A stretch of DNA of 64,000 bases from Verrucomicrobiia bacterium (GCA_049510215.1 JBEKZD010000002.1:117846-181845); one strand, 5' to 3'. Counted from the first letter of the stretch, positions 968 to 37,615 are shown. Numbers and translations: made by a program. Notes: generated by a model not told the origin, from the sequence alone.

Positions 968-994
968 ACACGGGCGAGACGCCCGCGCTACTAG
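968..994. repeat. Family-A palindromic element, solo right arm, followed by a G10 homopolymer (994-1003)
   Basis: ACGGGCGAGACGCCCGCGCTACTA matches the right arm of the 6 full copies elsewhere in the window. Confidence 0.7.
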
Positions 995-1035
995 GGGGGG
1001 GGGCAATGCCAGGTTGCGCCAAGTGCGGCGCGCCT

Positions 1036-1878
1036 CTACCTGAGTCGCGCGAGCTTGGCGGCGAGGTTGATGGCGGCAATCATGCTGGCGGGGTTGGCAA
1101 TGCCTTTGCCCGCGATGTCGAAGGCCGTGCCGTGGTCGGGCGACGTGCGAACGAACGGCAGACCGAGCGTCAGGTTCACGCCTGAATCGAAAGCGATCAT
1201 CTTCAGCGGCGCGAGTCCTTGATCGTGATACATCGCCACCACCGCGTCGAATTCGCCGTGATAAGCTTTGTGAAATAACGTGTCGGCGGGCCACGGGCCG
1301 GTGACGCCGATGCCTTTGCCTTTTGCGCTCTGGATCGCTGGCGCGATGATGCGTTGCTCCTCGTGGCCGAGCAAACCGCCTTCGCCCGCGTGCGGATTCA
1401 ACCCGGCCACGCCGATCTTCGGTCGACGGATGCCCAATCGTTTGCACACGTCGTGGGAAAGCCCGATCACTTCAACGATTCTTCTGTTCGAAAGCAGCCG
1501 TGGCACTTTCGCCAGCGGCACATGAATTGTCACCAAGGATACACGAAGGGGTCCGCCGACCAACATCATGGCGAAACGCTTTGTCCGCGCGATATGCGCA
1601 AGCAACTCGGTGTGGCCTTCGAAGTGATAACCGGCGTCGCGCACAAGTTGCTTGCTGATGGGCGCGGTGACGATAGCAGCCAATTCGCCCGACAAACAGC
1701 GGCGCGCGGCTTGCACGACCCAATCGACGGCGTCAGCCCGGCGTTTTGTGTGCGGGTCGCCAATGACTTCGTAGTCGAACCGTTTGTCGAGTTTGCCCGA
1801 AGCGAGGGCCTTGGCGACGATTTCCGGGCCGATGCCGGCCACGTCGCCCAGCGTGATGCCAATTCGCCGAAGGCTCAT
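1036..1878 (-). CDS. pdxA: 4-hydroxythreonine-4-phosphate dehydrogenase PdxA
   Basis: 280-aa ORF with PdxA-like motifs (GDVAGIGPEIV, HEGHTELLA, GLNPHAGEGG). Confidence 0.85.
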   Translation of the reverse strand: MSLRRIGITLGDVAGIGPEIVAKALASGKLDKRFDYEVIGDPHTKRRADAVDWVVQAARRCLSGELAAIVTAPISKQLVRDAGYHFEGHTELLAHIARTKRFAMMLVGGPLRVSLVTIHVPLAKVPRLLSNRRIVEVIGLSHDVCKRLGIRRPKIGVAGLNPHAGEGGLLGHEEQRIIAPAIQSAKGKGIGVTGPWPADTLFHKAYHGEFDAVVAMYHDQGLAPLKMIAFDSGVNLTLGLPFVRTSPDHGTAFDIAGKGIANPASMIAAINLAAKLARLR

Positions 1879-1899
1879 AAATCCGAAACCTATGAATTC

Positions 1900-1962
1900 T
1901 GGTGGCGCAGGCGTCCCTGCCTGCGTACCATGATTGCACAGGCAGGGACGCCTGTGCCACCA
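1900..1962. repeat. Family-C palindromic element, full copy (arms TGGTGGCGCAGGCGTCCCTGCCTGCG / CACAGGCAGGGACGCCTGTGCCACCA)
   Basis: Perfect approximately 25-nt inverted arms. The same arm sequence recurs at 6444-6470 and 35866-35892. Confidence 0.75.
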
Positions 1963-2004
1963 CTCGTGAGACGGTTTGCGGTCATTCGAGTTTAGAATTT
2001 CCGC

Positions 2005-3189
2005 CTAGAACAACCGGATGTACGCTTTGGCGCGAAGCTCTTTGACCCATTCCTCCTGCATCTTGGCGCGCTGCAGTTCGAGCAGGATTTTTTCAACCTC
2101 GCCCCGCACCTCGGTCAGCAGTCTAGTGTGGGCGGGCTTCACGTCGTTGACCTGCAAAATGTAATAACCTTCGTCGGTTTCAATCAGCTTGCTGTGCTCG
2201 CCCGGTTTGAGCGAGAACGCCACATCGTTGAGTTCCTTGCGCAGGACATCACGGCCAATCCAACCCCACTCGCCGCCCTCTTTTGCCTCCTTTCCCTCGG
2301 AGTAAAGCTTCGCCATGCCGTCGAAACTGTCGCCCGCATCCAGCTTGGCCATGATTTCCTCTCCCAGTTTGCGCCGCGGATCGACCCCGCTCTGAGCGGG
2401 ACCAGCCTGCGGCGGCGGCGGCGCGGACGGAGCTTCGACAGGAGTCGCGAGTCCTTCTCGGACCTCGGCTTCCGCCCTGGCTTCGCCGGTGACGTTTGTC
2501 GCGTCAGTAACAGTTCGTTCCGGGGTGTTGGTAGCGGTGGCCGTTGCGTTTGTGCTGACTTCTGAATTCTGGCTCCTGACTTCCTCCATCGGCGCCTTCT
2601 TGATGAAGATCATGCGGAGCTTGATCTGGTCGCCGACCTTGTAGTCGTCCAAATGTTCCTGGTAGTACTTTTCGATCTTGTACGGCGAGGCCACCACTTC
2701 CTGCTGGGTCTTGCGATTGCGCATGGCTTGAACGATGATGCGGTCGCGCAATTGATCGCGATATTGCGCCAAAGTCATGCGTTGCGCCTGAAGCGTCTTG
2801 ATAAACGTGGAGCGGTCGCCGCCGAAATCGTTGGCGATCACATCGTTGAGCTGCCCGTCAATGACGGTGGCAGGAAAGTTGTAGCCCTTCTGGTTGAATT
2901 CCTGGATGATCAGGTCGCGGTCGATGAGGTTGTTCAGAGCGTCCATCTGCGCGGTTCGAACCTTCTCCACCAATTCGTTGCCGCTGTAGGTGCGCCTCAA
3001 TTGCTGCACGACGGGCTGCACATAATCTCGAACCTCGCTGTAGGTGATGACCTTGTCGTTGACGATGGCGGCGACTCCATCGACGATCTCGGACTGCTCG
3101 GTCGTGGCCGCCCGGACAGGACCGGTGCATATCAGCACGGTCACAACCACCGTCAGCACGTAGCGGGCCCTCTTGGAGTGTTGCGTCAT
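2005..3189 (-). CDS. SurA-like periplasmic chaperone / parvulin-type peptidyl-prolyl isomerase
   Basis: Signal-peptide-like N-terminus (MTQHSKRARYVLTVVVTVLICTGPVRA) and a C-terminal PpiC/parvulin region. It carries a low-complexity insertion (TNATATATNTPERT... PPPPQAGP). The start was trimmed to the ATG at 3189 because the ORF-track upstream extension translates the family-B repeat. Confidence 0.7.
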   Translation of the reverse strand: MTQHSKRARYVLTVVVTVLICTGPVRAATTEQSEIVDGVAAIVNDKVITYSEVRDYVQPVVQQLRRTYSGNELVEKVRTAQMDALNNLIDRDLIIQEFNQKGYNFPATVIDGQLNDVIANDFGGDRSTFIKTLQAQRMTLAQYRDQLRDRIIVQAMRNRKTQQEVVASPYKIEKYYQEHLDDYKVGDQIKLRMIFIKKAPMEEVRSQNSEVSTNATATATNTPERTVTDATNVTGEARAEAEVREGLATPVEAPSAPPPPQAGPAQSGVDPRRKLGEEIMAKLDAGDSFDGMAKLYSEGKEAKEGGEWGWIGRDVLRKELNDVAFSLKPGEHSKLIETDEGYYILQVNDVKPAHTRLLTEVRGEVEKILLELQRAKMQEEWVKELRAKAYIRLF

Positions 3190-35865: not shown

Positions 35866-35892
35866 CACAGGCAGGGACGCCTGTGCCACCAA
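35866..35892. repeat. Family-C solo arm, intergenic
   Basis: CACAGGCAGGGACGCCTGTGCCACCA. Confidence 0.65.
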
Positions 35893-36025
35893 GGATTTAT
35901 GAGACCGCTTCTAGTAGAGCGGGCAAGCTGGAAGCTTGTCCCACGCTGCCACCACTTTCAATCGCAGCGCGCACCAACTGAGCACTTGTGGCGTTGGCCG
36001 GCAAAGAATAGAATCACGCCCGACC

Positions 36026-36331
36026 ATGTTGATCGTCCATGTCCACGTTCACGTGAAACCGGAATGCGTCGAGGCGTTTCGGCAGGCGACCGTCGAGAAC
36101 GCGCGCCAAAGCGTGAAGGAACCCGGCATCGCCCGCTTTGATGCCGTCCAGCAGACCGACGACCCGACGCGATTCGTGTTGATCGAGGTCTATCGCACCG
36201 CCGACGCGCCCGCCAAACACAAGGAGACAGCGCACTACCAGAAATGGCGCGACACCGTACAGCCGATGATGGCCGAGCCGCGCACCAGCGTGAAGTACGA
36301 CAACGTGTTCCCCAATGATGCAGGCCGGTAA
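36026..36331 (+). CDS. antibiotic-biosynthesis-monooxygenase (ABM) domain protein
   Basis: [26 protein letters not shown] ... roughly 100-aa ferredoxin-like ABM fold. ATG at 36026. Confidence 0.7.
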
Positions 36332-36332
36332 C

Positions 36333-36418
36333 AGTAGGGTGGGCGTCTCGCCCGCCTGCCGTTCCTGCGACGCGCGAACACGACTGGGAGACCAAACGGG
36401 CGGGACGCCCGCGCTACT
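36333..36418. repeat. Family-A palindromic element, full copy; its last bases abut the ATG of the downstream alcohol dehydrogenase
   Basis: AGTAGGGTGGGCGTCTCGCCCG ... AACGGGCGGGACGCCCGCGCTACT followed directly by ATG at 36419. Confidence 0.8.
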
Positions 36419-37615
36419 ATGAACTTCGAATTCGCCACCGCCGCGCGCATCATCTTCGGCACGGGCAAACTGCGCGAGGTTGGCCCGATGGCCCGCGAAC
36501 TTGGCCGACGCGCCTTCGTGGTGACCGGCAGTTCGCCTGAGCGGGCAAAACCGCTTCTCGTCGCGCTGGCAAGTGGCGGCATCGAGCATGTCGTGCTTCC
36601 CGTCGCTGACGAACCGACAACGGAGGTCGTGCAACGAGGAACACAGTCCGCTCGCGAACAGCATTGCGATCTGGTGATCGGCTTCGGCGGCGGCAGCGCG
36701 ATCGACACTGGCAAAGCCATCGCCGCGTTGCTCACCAACGGCGGTGATTTGTTGGATTACTTGGAAGTCATCGGCAAAGGCAAACCGCTGGCCAAACCTT
36801 CCGCGCCCTACGTCGCTATTCCGACGACGGCTGGCACCGGTTCCGAAGTGACGCGCAACGCCGTTTTGGGATCGCCCGATCACAGGGTCAAGGTCAGCCT
36901 GCGCAGTCCGTTGATGCTGCCGCGCGTGGCGTTGGTGGATCCCGAACTCACCTACGACCTGCCACGCGAAGTGACTGCGAGCACCGGACTCGATGCGCTC
37001 ACGCAACTCATCGAAGCGTTCGTCTCGAACCGCGCGAACCCGATGACCGACGCGCTTTGCCGCGAAGGGATTCGCCGGGCCGCGCATTCGTTGCGCCGCG
37101 CGTGCGAGACGGCCGACGACCCGCCTTCGCCAGAGCTTCGGCGGGCAAGTGCATCGGCGCGTGAAGACATGTCACTGGCCAGCTTGTTCAGCGGACTGGC
37201 ATTGGCAAATGCTGGACTCGGTGCGGTCCACGGATTCGCTGCGCCGATTGGCGGGATGTTTCACGCGCCGCACGGCGCGGTGTGCGCGACGTTGTTGCCA
37301 CACGTGATGGAAGTCAACCTCCGCGCGCTGCGGGCACGCCAGCCCCGTACGGTTCGGGGCAAGCCCGAAAGCGAAGCGCTGCGCCGGTATGAAGAGATCG
37401 ACCGTGCGTTCGGCGGCGACGCGATCGCGTGGATTCATGAGACGTGCCGCTCGATGAAAATTCCGCCGCTGTCGAGTTACGGTGTTCGAGAAAAAGATTT
37501 TCCAGTGTTGGTTGAAAAAGCAGCTATCGCCAGCAGCATGCGGGGAAATCCGATCACCCTGACACCCGATGAACTGCGCGAAATCCTCGAACGGGAGGCA
37601 GCACCTCACCGCTGA
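36419..37615 (+). CDS. iron-containing alcohol dehydrogenase
   Basis: Fe-ADH family motifs (GGGSAIDTGKAIA, metal-binding His pattern), 398 aa. Confidence 0.85.
   Translation: MNFEFATAARIIFGTGKLREVGPMARELGRRAFVVTGSSPERAKPLLVALASGGIEHVVLPVADEPTTEVVQRGTQSAREQHCDLVIGFGGGSAIDTGKAIAALLTNGGDLLDYLEVIGKGKPLAKPSAPYVAIPTTAGTGSEVTRNAVLGSPDHRVKVSLRSPLMLPRVALVDPELTYDLPREVTASTGLDALTQLIEAFVSNRANPMTDALCREGIRRAAHSLRRACETADDPPSPELRRASASAREDMSLASLFSGLALANAGLGAVHGFAAPIGGMFHAPHGAVCATLLPHVMEVNLRALRARQPRTVRGKPESEALRRYEEIDRAFGGDAIAWIHETCRSMKIPPLSSYGVREKDFPVLVEKAAIASSMRGNPITLTPDELREILEREAAPHR

What the first reader, a model, noticed from the sequence alone, without database searches (positions are those of the whole stretch)
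968..36420. Family-A RPE-like palindromic element: 6 full copies and 1 solo arm, three of them inserted in-frame inside uvrA
The element is 60-90 bp with near-identical 24-nt inverted arms (TAGTAGCGCGGGCGTCTCGCCCGT ... ACGGGCGAGACGCCCGCGCTACTA) around a variable core. Copies lie at 4968-5028, 9413-9488, 9986-10056, 12147-12224, 27351-27420 and 36333-36418, plus a solo arm at 968-994. The three uvrA copies keep the reading frame and encode peptides such as [23 protein letters not shown], so a DNA-repair enzyme tolerates element-encoded peptides. The closest precedent I know is Rickettsia palindromic elements, which also insert in-frame into genes. Here the same thing is seen in a high-GC genome with several co-existing families.
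Basis: partly seen in the sequence, partly recalled or inferred. Interest (0 to 1): 0.85.

Follow-up and report, generated by a model that had tools for sequence, protein, structure and literature searches.

The report
GTAG-type REP/REPIN repeats inside uvrA
The palindromic repeats are real and three do sit in frame inside the DNA-repair gene uvrA, but they are REP/REPIN elements of a RAYT transposase, and this repeat type was already reported inside uvrA of another Verrucomicrobium in 2013.

Summary
The 24-nt arm occurs 11 times at up to 3 mismatches (0 expected by chance). It forms six inverted doublets of 63-88 nt and one solo arm. Three doublets are read through in the 1906-aa tandem-fused UvrA.

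Each arm is a REP: an unpaired GTAG tag followed by a 6-bp GC stem with a TCT/TCC loop. Each doublet is a REPIN. In the closest genome (MAG SPRUCE 226, 87-97% nt identity), a RAYT tyrosine-transposase gene is flanked on both sides by these doublets. Five further RAYT loci carry the same REP core.

An alignment of 63 UvrA orthologues shows the peptides are lineage-specific. Copy 2 is a clean 66-nt insertion at a site that is empty in most orthologues. Copies 1 and 3 occupy the two inter-domain linkers, so they are not simple additions. AlphaFold gives pLDDT below 50 across the peptides of copies 1 and 2.

The RPE analogy holds only as an analogy. Di Nocera et al. 2013 (PMC3733652) already reported GTAG-19 REPs encoding VARASRP and HGRDARAT inside both uvrA genes of Opitutus terrae.

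Verdict: a real new member of a known kind, of modest interest. Possibly new: different REP families occupy the same uvrA codon positions in sister genomes, and the identical 22-mer occurs in at least six phyla.

The parts
970..993 (-). Solo family-A REP (GTAG tag plus 6-bp stem and TCT loop). It is the remnant of a doublet.
   Evidence: Exact match to the arm. It folds as a 6-bp stem with a TCT loop and the tag unpaired. The orthologous site in SPRUCE 226 carries a full doublet (L036 3489-3556), and synteny breaks inside it.
4967..5029 (.). Family-A REPIN (inverted REP doublet), intergenic between the PEPCK start and the radical-SAM stop.
   Evidence: Folds at -28.5 kcal/mol, z -9.2. Conserved in SPRUCE 226 (L036 7670-7728). 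The CTA at 5024-5026 is the TAG stop codon of the minus-strand radical-SAM gene.
7583..13303 (+). Host gene: tandem-fused double UvrA (1906 aa) carrying three family-A REPINs and at least three other palindromic inserts.
   Evidence: About 100 extra residues relative to 63 orthologues; the four segments of 11-33 aa each coincide with a palindrome.
9411..9487 (.). Family-A REPIN in frame in uvrA, encoding aa 611-635 ([25 protein letters not shown]). It occupies the NBD-I/NBD-II linker of the first UvrA unit.
   Evidence: Folds at -35.3 kcal/mol, z -7.9. pLDDT is below 50 at aa 613-628 and there is a beta-strand at aa 633-641. Arms are conserved but the spacer is replaced in SPRUCE 226.
9985..10055 (.). 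Family-A REPIN in frame in uvrA (aa 802-824, [23 protein letters not shown]). It is a clean insertion; the 66 nt at 9986-10051 are excisable.
   Evidence: 34 of 63 orthologues are empty at this site and only P0001 and P0002 carry this peptide. Folds at -38.5 kcal/mol, z -10.1. pLDDT is below 50 at aa 804-821.
12147..12223 (.). Family-A REPIN in frame in uvrA (aa 1523-1547, [25 protein letters not shown]), in the linker of the second UvrA unit.
   Evidence: Both arms are exact. Folds at -37.4 kcal/mol, z -9.3. SPRUCE 226 has a different REP family (GCAAGC-TTCCA-GCTTGC) at the same codon positions. Baseline orthologues are 12-15 aa shorter.
27351..27420 (.). Family-A REPIN, intergenic, 55 nt downstream of the ribonucleotide reductase stop. 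The left arm has a 1-nt loop deletion.
   Evidence: Folds at -31.3 kcal/mol, z -8.3.
36332..36419 (.). Family-A REPIN with a decayed left arm (4 mismatches). It fills the whole gap between the ABM-domain gene and the Fe-ADH gene.
   Evidence: Folds at -27.7 kcal/mol, z -3.5.

Best explanation
Family A is a GTAG-tagged REP (repetitive 'extragenic' palindrome) of the type Di Nocera et al. 2013 called GTAG-19. It occurs mostly as inverted dimers, i.e. REPINs.

Structure. Each 24-nt arm is an unpaired (A)GTAG tag followed by a 6-7 bp GC stem closing a TCT/TCC triloop. Two arms with the tags facing outward, plus a 15-40 nt variable spacer, make a 63-88 nt hairpin.

Inferred mechanism. The elements are non-autonomous. 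A single-copy RAYT (an HUH/Y1 tyrosine transposase of the IS200/IS605 superfamily) copies or moves them in trans. It recognises the REP hairpin on single-stranded DNA and cuts next to the GTAG tag, leaving no target-site duplication.

Why copies survive inside genes:
(a) The GC-rich palindrome is open in 4 of its 6 reading frames. Only the frame that reads the tag's TAG is closed.
(b) A GTAG-to-CTAC length of 3n+1 keeps the host frame, as in all three uvrA copies.
(c) They lie at permissive places in UvrA, namely the two inter-NBD linkers and one surface loop, where they are translated as disordered peptides.

Shown here: the anatomy, the copy number, the RAYT association in relatives, the lineage-specific in-frame presence, and turnover at fixed sites.
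Inferred: RAYT-mediated mobilisation, the cleavage site, translation of the peptides, and neutrality for UvrA function.
For: REP anatomy. There are 13 arms in 64 kb against 0 expected. The single REP folds as a 6-bp stem with a TCT loop and the GTAG tag unpaired; the doublets fold with z-scores of -3.5 to -10. No direct repeat flanks any copy (sequence).

RAYT association:
- In the closest genome (SPRUCE 226, 87-97% nt identity and syntenic), a gene hits Pfam Y1_Tnp (31.9 bits, cutoff 23) and NCBIfam REP_Tyr_transpos (E 1.4e-21).
- That gene is flanked on both sides by family-A doublets (L012 2647-2711 and 3305-3389; L100).
- The gene order Dtd-RAYT-SpoU, with REPINs sharing the core GGGCGTCYCGCCC, recurs in a 71%-identical relative (L101).
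- Further RAYT loci L102, L103/L104, L005 and L025 carry the same REP core next to the gene.
- The RAYT clade has 3415 homologues, many named 'REP element-mobilizing transposase RayT'. It spans several of the phyla where the exact 22-mer arm is found (Verrucomicrobiota, Planctomycetota, Sumerlaeota).

Lineage-specific in-frame copies:
- At the copy-2 site, 34 of 63 UvrA orthologues are empty, and removing the 66 nt at 9986-10051 restores the consensus.
- At the linker sites, only a few orthologues carry family-A peptides; others carry other REP-type peptides.
- Four of six frames are open.
- pLDDT is below 50 over the peptides of copies 1 and 2.

Genome-wide in relatives. Family-A doublets lie in frame inside MetH, DnaE, Mfd, a Rad3-like helicase, IspG, TypA and GlnS.

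Activity and turnover. SPRUCE 226 has a different REP family at the copy-3 site, a different spacer at the copy-1 site, and an extra 99-bp family-C element at window position 10253.

Published precedent. Peptides VARASRP, GARASRP (Oter_2709, a 1995-aa UvrA, aa 638-644) and GTGVPPV...HGRDARAT (Oter_3168 UvrA) are listed as GTAG-19 REPs in PMC3733652, Additional file 3.
Against: - No RAYT gene lies in the 64-kb window.
- No RAYT at 85% identity or more, attributable to the window's own population, was found among 5.8 billion proteins. The host may therefore lack an active enzyme.
- The NCBIfam REP_Tyr_transpos score (77) is just under its cutoff (80).
- The SPRUCE 226 RAYT has no obvious start codon of its own. 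Its frame is open from the upstream Dtd gene through the REPIN.
- No polymorphism at any element was seen among three near-identical strains, so there is no direct sign of current mobility.
- An exact 22-mer shared across at least six phyla fits poorly with the usual picture of vertically inherited, lineage-specific REPIN-RAYT pairs.
- Three of the 7 window copies are intragenic, which contradicts the 'extragenic' part of the classical definition.
Confidence: 0.85

Rival explanations
1. The elements are RPE-like: a self-contained family of selfish palindromic elements akin to Rickettsia palindromic elements. They would spread into genes by an unknown, transposase-independent route and add peptide modules to proteins.
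For: They share RPEs' most distinctive behaviour: in-frame presence inside essential genes, without stops, at permissive sites. Di Nocera et al. class RPE-4 and RPE-6 as REPs of the CGTC super-family, so RPEs and REPs are conceptually linked.
Against: The arms carry the GTAG tag and short hairpin of RAYT-associated REPs. A RAYT is flanked by them at six loci. The elements are 63-88 nt and about 75% GC, in Verrucomicrobia. By general knowledge, the classical RPE-1 elements are 100-150 bp and AT-rich, and are found in Rickettsia.
Confidence: 0.04
2. The elements are MITEs: deletion derivatives of a DDE-transposase insertion sequence that has 24-nt terminal inverted repeats, mobilised in trans by that IS.
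For: They are short, non-coding, have near-perfect terminal inverted repeats, are multi-copy, and show presence/absence differences between relatives.
Against: No target-site duplication flanks any of the six doublets. No IS with these termini was seen in the window or in about 700 kb of related loci. Solo arms and multi-hairpin arrays occur. Each arm is itself a hairpin with a GTAG tag. The only transposase found adjacent is a Y1 RAYT.
Confidence: 0.04
3. The repeats are maintained mainly because they serve the host as structured DNA or RNA signals (terminators, mRNA stabilisers, translational pause sites at domain boundaries). The uvrA copies would then be selected features and not tolerated passengers.
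For: Intergenic copies sit immediately downstream of genes (RNR, radical SAM, ABM), as reported for REPs generally (PMC3733652). The arms in uvrA stay near-perfect, while orthologues at about 75% aa identity carry the same family at the same linker. That suggests homogenisation or selection at the DNA level. The sites are domain boundaries.
Against: Most orthologues lack the copy-2 insert, and the linkers hold unrelated sequences of similar length. The occupying family differs between sister genomes. No expression data exist. This reading is compatible with, and does not replace, a RAYT-based origin.
Confidence: 0.12
4. The segments are ancestral UvrA coding sequence, and the resemblance to the intergenic copies arose by chance or convergence.
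For: Copies 1 and 3 occupy a linker that exists in all UvrA proteins and is of similar length.
Against: The arms match the intergenic copies at 21-24 of 24 nt. 34 of 63 orthologues are empty at the copy-2 site. The family-A peptide has a patchy distribution at the linkers. SPRUCE 226 carries a different family at the copy-3 site.
Confidence: 0.01

Closest known systems
GTAG-tagged REPs, family GTAG-19 of Opitutus terrae (Di Nocera, De Gregorio & Rocco 2013, BMC Genomics 14:522, PMC3733652)
   Same: Same phylum. Same anatomy: an unpaired GTAG tag plus a short GC stem-loop, with single units and inverted dimers. The same REP-encoded peptides appear in three frames (VARASRP; GxGVPPV; HGRDARAT). 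The same host gene is involved: both O. terrae uvrA genes, including the 1995-aa double UvrA, which has GARASRP at aa 638-644, close in position to aa 611-617 here. Several GT(A/G)G families also coexist there, including a GTGG-tagged one.
   Different: The organism is a different, uncultured peat Verrucomicrobiia lineage. Dimer spacers here are 15-40 nt, whereas the paper reports 1-2 bp for the GTAG-19 TT dimers. The DNA consensus in the paper's Figure 1 was not available to me, so identity rests on the peptides. Orthologous-site turnover between sister genomes and the cross-phylum 22-mer identity are not reported in the passages of that paper I read.
REPIN-RAYT systems (Nunvar et al. 2010; Bertels & Rainey 2011, PMC3116915; Ton-Hoang et al. 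2012 'REPtrons')
   Same: Inverted REP doublets form long hairpins. Singlets appear as decayed doublets. A single RAYT gene is flanked by its own REPs at a fixed chromosomal locus (Dtd-RAYT-SpoU) that is conserved among relatives.
   Different: Classical REPINs are extragenic and were described mainly in Pseudomonas and enterobacteria. Here a large share are read through inside essential genes, and the same REP core occurs in several phyla.
Rickettsia palindromic elements (RPE; Ogata et al. 2000)
   Same: Palindromic repeats inserted in frame into functional genes at permissive surface positions, adding peptide segments.
   Different: There is no sequence relationship. By general knowledge, the classical RPE-1 elements are longer, AT-rich, restricted to Rickettsia, and have no known dedicated transposase. 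Di Nocera et al. place RPE-4 and RPE-6 in the CGTC REP super-family, not the GTAG one.

Membership tests
GTAG-type REP / REPIN | Short stem-loop (stem about 6-9 bp) with an unpaired GTAG tetranucleotide at one end | tested here: met
   TAGTAGCG is unpaired and GCGGGC-TCT... forms a 6-bp stem with a TCT loop. GTAG is present in 12 of 13 arms; the left arm of the 9411 copy reads GTAA.
GTAG-type REP / REPIN | Many dispersed copies in one genome | tested here: met
   13 arms in 64 kb against 0 expected. At least 36 elements lie in 228 kb of SPRUCE 226 loci, but this sample was selected by the match and the scan was truncated. A whole-genome count for the window's organism is not possible with the data held.
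GTAG-type REP / REPIN | Inverted dimers (tags outward) able to form one long hairpin | tested here: met
   Six doublets fold at -27.7 to -38.5 kcal/mol.
GTAG-type REP / REPIN | Cognate RAYT (Y1/HUH transposase) gene flanked by the same REPs (REPtron) in related genomes | tested here: met
   SPRUCE 226 L012/L100; also L101, L102, L103/L104, L005 and L025.
GTAG-type REP / REPIN | Cognate RAYT present in the window's own genome | tested here: inconclusive
   None in the 64-kb window. No orthologue at 85% identity or more was recovered from the protein collection. The rest of the genome is not available.
GTAG-type REP / REPIN | Predominantly extragenic location | tested here: not met
   Three of 7 window copies are inside uvrA. 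In relatives, copies lie inside MetH, DnaE, Mfd, IspG, TypA and GlnS. The same exception was published for O. terrae.
GTAG-type REP / REPIN | Mobilisation by RAYT: ssDNA hairpin binding and cleavage next to GTAG | not testable with these tools
   Only indirect signs exist: presence/absence and family replacement between sister genomes, and no target-site duplications.
GTAG-19 family of Di Nocera et al. 2013 | Same stem and loop sequence as the published consensus | tested here: met
   This test is indirect. The published REP-encoded peptides VARASRP, GxGVPPV and HGRDARAT equal the translations of family A in three frames and on both strands, which nearly fixes the DNA. The figure with the consensus is not held.
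Rickettsia palindromic elements (RPE) | Sequence similarity to an RPE family consensus | not tested
   No RPE sequences were available. The approximately 75% GC content of family A makes similarity to AT-rich RPEs implausible (inference).
Rickettsia palindromic elements (RPE) | In-frame insertion into functional ORFs at permissive sites | tested here: met
MITE (DDE-transposon derivative) | Target-site duplication flanking the terminal inverted repeats | tested here: not met
   No direct repeats flank any of the six doublets. The copy-2 insertion excises cleanly as AGTAG...CTACT with no duplicated bases.
MITE (DDE-transposon derivative) | Parent IS with the same termini | tested here: not met
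   None in the window or in the 104 fetched loci. Only Y1 RAYT genes adjoin the arms.

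The most novel reading that the evidence does not exclude
REPs of different families use a small set of fixed 'landing pads' inside essential genes. These include the two UvrA linkers, one UvrA loop, and comparable sites in DnaE, Mfd and MetH. At these pads the REPs replace one another by RAYT-mediated cassette exchange at the resident GTAG/CTAC ends. The same codon positions would then carry different, repeatedly renewed peptide segments in sister genomes. 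This would be a transposase-driven mechanism of linker and loop diversification, and possibly of modulating DNA repair, that operates across several phyla sharing one RAYT/REP type.
Probability: 0.12. Interest if true: 0.6.

Novelty: new member of a known kind. Interest (0 to 1): 0.3.

Why it matters
It assigns a conspicuous repeat in an abundant, uncultured peat-bog Verrucomicrobium to a known mechanism (REPIN/RAYT).

It also has practical consequences for annotation. These elements are open in most reading frames. Gene callers therefore fuse neighbouring genes through them (for example Dtd-RAYT) and inflate protein lengths: UvrA orthologues range from 1750 to 2039 aa.

For biology, it extends the published O. 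terrae observation to a broad set of environmental genomes. It also supplies matched sister genomes in which the same uvrA codon positions hold different REP families. That is a good natural system for studying how REPINs turn over, and why replication and repair genes are so often decorated.

Tried and rejected
1. A search for a RAYT in the window, using remembered E. coli RAYT and IS608 TnpA seeds and then the SPRUCE 226 RAYT with jackhmmer, found none.
2. L009 has three same-orientation singlets that looked like a REPtron. The enclosed genes are a 181-aa plus 80-aa pair of unknown function, not a RAYT.
3. I tried to recover the window organism's own RAYT. P0121/L100 turned out to be SPRUCE 226 itself (99.93% identity). 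P0122 and P0123 (67-70% identity) come from other samples and could not be assigned.
4. Strain-level polymorphism: three near-identical contigs differ at 35 positions, none of them in an element.
5. A read-through-ORF count of intragenic copies over-counts, because the elements do not break frames. It flagged the spurious antisense ORF at 36014-37087 and the Dtd-RAYT fusion. I therefore relied only on the eight cases checked against NCBIfam, seven of which gave a family match spanning the element.
6. Rfam shows no known RNA family at any element.
7. A first NCBIfam call with guessed coordinates failed.

Full report
OBSERVATION

The 24-nt arm TAGTAGCGCGGGCGTCTCGCCCGT has 11 matches at up to 3 mismatches in the window, against 0.00 expected from shuffles. 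A looser search and direct reading add the two degraded left arms. This gives six inverted doublets:
- 4967-5029 (63 nt)
- 9411-9487 (77 nt)
- 9985-10055 (71 nt)
- 12147-12223 (77 nt)
- 27351-27420 (70 nt; 1-nt deletion in the left loop)
- 36332-36419 (88 nt; left arm with 4 mismatches)

There is also one solo arm at 970-993 on the minus strand.

As single-stranded DNA the doublets fold into long hairpins of -27.7 to -38.5 kcal/mol, with z-scores of -3.5 to -10.1. A single arm folds as a 6-bp GC stem with a TCT loop, leaving TAGTAGCG unpaired.

ORF 7583-13303 encodes a 1906-aa protein made of two complete UvrA units in tandem. It reads straight through three doublets. The other four copies are intergenic (gene maps). 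One supplies the TAG stop codon of the radical-SAM gene. Another fills the whole ABM/Fe-ADH intergenic gap.

The same UvrA protein is indexed in 44 blocks of the assembly collection. Three independently assembled contigs (99.86-99.996% identical) show no difference at any element. This rules out an assembly artefact.

WHERE THE WINDOW COMES FROM

The window is 87-97% identical to, and syntenic with, contig JBEKFI010000013 of the peat MAG 'Verrucomicrobiia bacterium SPRUCE 226'. That sister genome serves as the comparator below.

WHAT THE ELEMENT IS

Each arm has the anatomy of a GTAG-tagged REP. Two arms with the tags facing outward make a REPIN.

The decisive evidence is a transposase gene. 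In SPRUCE 226, a gene that hits Pfam Y1_Tnp (31.9 bits against a cutoff of 23) and NCBIfam 'REP-associated tyrosine transposase' (77 bits, E 1.4e-21, cutoff 80) is flanked on both sides by family-A doublets (L012 2647-2711 and 3305-3389).

Further support for the association:
- The same gene order, Dtd-RAYT-SpoU, recurs in a relative whose RAYT is 71% identical. There it is flanked by REPINs with a slightly different stem but the same core, GGGCGTCYCGCCC (L101).
- Four more RAYT loci (L102, L103/L104, L005, L025) have the same REP core next to the gene.
- The RAYT clade is very large: 3415 homologues at E of 1e-30 or better, many annotated by JGI as 'REP element-mobilizing transposase RayT'. 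It covers Verrucomicrobiota, Kiritimatiellae, Planctomycetota, Hydrogenedentes and Sumerlaeota.
- The exact 22-mer GTAGCGCGGGCGTCYCGCCCGT was found in Verrucomicrobiota, Planctomycetota, Acidobacteriota, Cyanobacteria, Armatimonadota and Sumerlaeia (truncated at 95 loci).
- In those genomes it occurs as singlets, doublets and multi-hairpin arrays. The stems covary around a constant TCT/TCC triloop.

Points against other classifications:
- None of the six window doublets is flanked by a direct repeat, as expected for Y1 transposition and not for a DDE-type MITE.
- No RAYT lies in the window itself, and I could not recover one attributable to the window's own population.
- No Rfam family matches the elements.

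ARE THE uvrA COPIES INSERTIONS?

I aligned 63 double-UvrA orthologues of 66-100% identity.

Copy 2 (aa 802-824):
- 34 orthologues read '[18 protein letters not shown]' with nothing in between.
- Only the window protein and SPRUCE 226 carry SSAGVPPV...HGRDARAT.
- About 20 others carry unrelated inserts at the same position; several look like translated palindromic repeats, for example 'HPERSEGS...LRFAQNDK'.
- Removing the 66 nt at 9986-10051 (AGTAG...CTACT) restores the consensus.
- The alignment to Geobacillus UvrA (PDB 2r6f) shows a 22-aa gap at the same position.

Copies 1 and 3 are different. They occupy the NBD-I/NBD-II linkers of the two UvrA units:
- Copy 1 is only +4 aa relative to Geobacillus UvrA. 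The end of its right arm encodes 'ALLITGA', the first beta-strand of the next domain.
- The family-A peptide occurs at these linkers in only a few orthologues (P0001, P0002, P0027, P0043 and others), with decayed versions in some.
- Other orthologues have family-C-type peptides ('[18 protein letters not shown]') or unrelated linkers.

The window UvrA carries about 100 residues that most orthologues lack, and the four segments of 11-33 aa each coincide with a palindrome in the DNA.

An AlphaFold model of the first unit (mean pLDDT 70.5) gives pLDDT below 50 and no regular secondary structure at aa 412-441, 613-628 and 804-821. These are exactly the element-encoded stretches. Several zinc-module regions are also of low confidence.

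WHY THE COPIES ARE TOLERATED

Translation in all six frames shows that four are open. They give either VARASRP...TGETPALL or SSAGVPPV...HGRDARAT. Only the frame that reads the tag's TAG is closed. The three uvrA copies use these two frames. Their GTAG-to-CTAC lengths (73, 64 and 73 nt) are all 3n+1, which keeps the host frame (sequence arithmetic).

In the relatives, family-A doublets also lie inside MetH, DnaE, Mfd, a Rad3-like helicase, IspG, TypA and GlnS. NCBIfam matches span both sides of the element in each case. The phenomenon is therefore genome-wide. It again includes replication and repair genes.

TURNOVER BETWEEN SISTER GENOMES

1. At the copy-3 site, SPRUCE 226 has a different REP (GTAG-GGCAAGC-TTCCA-GCTTGCC ... 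CTAC) at the same codon positions. That sequence belongs to a repeat family of its own, with 8 hits in 6 loci including window 35922-35944.
2. At the copy-1 site the arms are conserved but the spacer is almost entirely different and 6 nt shorter. This is far more divergent than the flanking gene, which differs by about 12%.
3. SPRUCE 226 has an extra 99-bp (33-codon) family-C element at window position 10253.
4. The palindromes at 8815-8909 and 12362-12418 are replaced by other palindromes.
5. The window's solo arm is a full doublet in SPRUCE 226, and synteny breaks inside it.

These are indirect signs of ongoing gain, loss and replacement at fixed sites.

COMPARISON WITH WHAT IS KNOWN

Di Nocera, De Gregorio and Rocco (BMC Genomics 2013, PMC3733652) defined the GTAG- and CGTC-tagged REP super-families. 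Their relevant findings are:
[quoted passage not shown] Their Additional file 3 lists these GTAG-19 peptides:
- VARASRP
- GARASRP (Oter_2709, a 1995-aa UvrA, aa 638-644)
- WHGRLARV...TGGTPVP (same protein, aa 1601-1623)
- [23 protein letters not shown] (Oter_3168 UvrA)

These are the translations of family A. The paper also places RPE-4 and RPE-6 of Rickettsia in the CGTC REP super-family. The central claim, in-frame palindromic elements in uvrA of a high-GC genome, is already published for the same phylum, the same REP type and the same gene. A full-text search found no other paper on this.

VERDICT

The finding is real and correctly observed. The best explanation is GTAG-type REP/REPIN elements of a RAYT system, tolerated in frame at permissive UvrA sites (confidence about 0.85). 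It is a new member of a known kind.

Two things may go beyond the 2013 description:
- Different REP families replace one another at identical codon positions in sister genomes.
- An identical 22-nt REP, together with a related RAYT clade, occurs across several phyla.

Both would need whole-genome and population data to turn into a result.

Noticed in passing
window 7583-13303: UvrA is a head-to-tail fusion of two complete UvrA units (1906 aa). The same architecture, at 1750-2039 aa, occurs in many Verrucomicrobiia and also in Nitrospirota, Gammaproteobacteria and Kiritimatiellae MAGs. O. terrae Oter_2709 (1995 aa) is another example.
   Followed up: partly
window 3231-3292, 11291-11358 (inside uvrA), 19840-19859 (inside the GltX-type gene), 26797-26866: A second GTAG REP family, family C (GTAGGGCGCGACCGCCGGGC). 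SPRUCE 226 carries an extra 99-bp family-C element in uvrA at the position equivalent to window 10253, where the window has none.
   Followed up: partly
window 1900-1962, 6446-6467 (inside era), 35868-35889: A GTGG-tagged family, family B (GTGGCRCAGGCGTCCCTGCCTG). It resembles the GTGG-tagged GTAG-20 class described for O. terrae.
   Followed up: no
window 8815-8909 and 12362-12418 (both inside uvrA); 13550-13566: Two further palindromes are translated within UvrA. In SPRUCE 226 both are replaced by other palindromes. One of these is of the 'CTGAGCGAAGCGAAGG' type (peptides HPERSEGS / LRFAQNDK), which also occurs at window 13550-13566 and in several UvrA orthologues.
   Followed up: partly
window 5921-5982 and 6931-6987: A different palindromic family, lower in GC and built on ATCCGTG/CACGGAT motifs, flanks the era gene.
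   Followed up: no
window 18651-18817 (minus strand): A c-di-AMP riboswitch (Rfam RF00379, 52.9 bits, gathering score 38) lies upstream of the amino-acid permease gene at 16572-18527.
   Followed up: no
window 994-1003: A run of ten G lies immediately next to the solo REP. SPRUCE 226 has TGGGGG at this position. Synteny with SPRUCE 226 ends inside this element.
   Followed up: no
L012 2637-4022; P0122, P0124, P0131: REPINs do not break reading frames. As a result the Dtd gene, a REPIN, the RAYT and a second REPIN form one open frame, and gene callers annotate Dtd-RAYT fusion proteins. The RAYT has no obvious start codon of its own.
   Followed up: partly
L009 3950-5400 (SPRUCE 226 contig JBEKFI010000087): Three same-orientation single REPs, each followed by a conserved sequence of about 90 nt, bracket a 181-aa plus 80-aa gene pair of unknown function. 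This could be a REP-bounded cassette.
   Followed up: no
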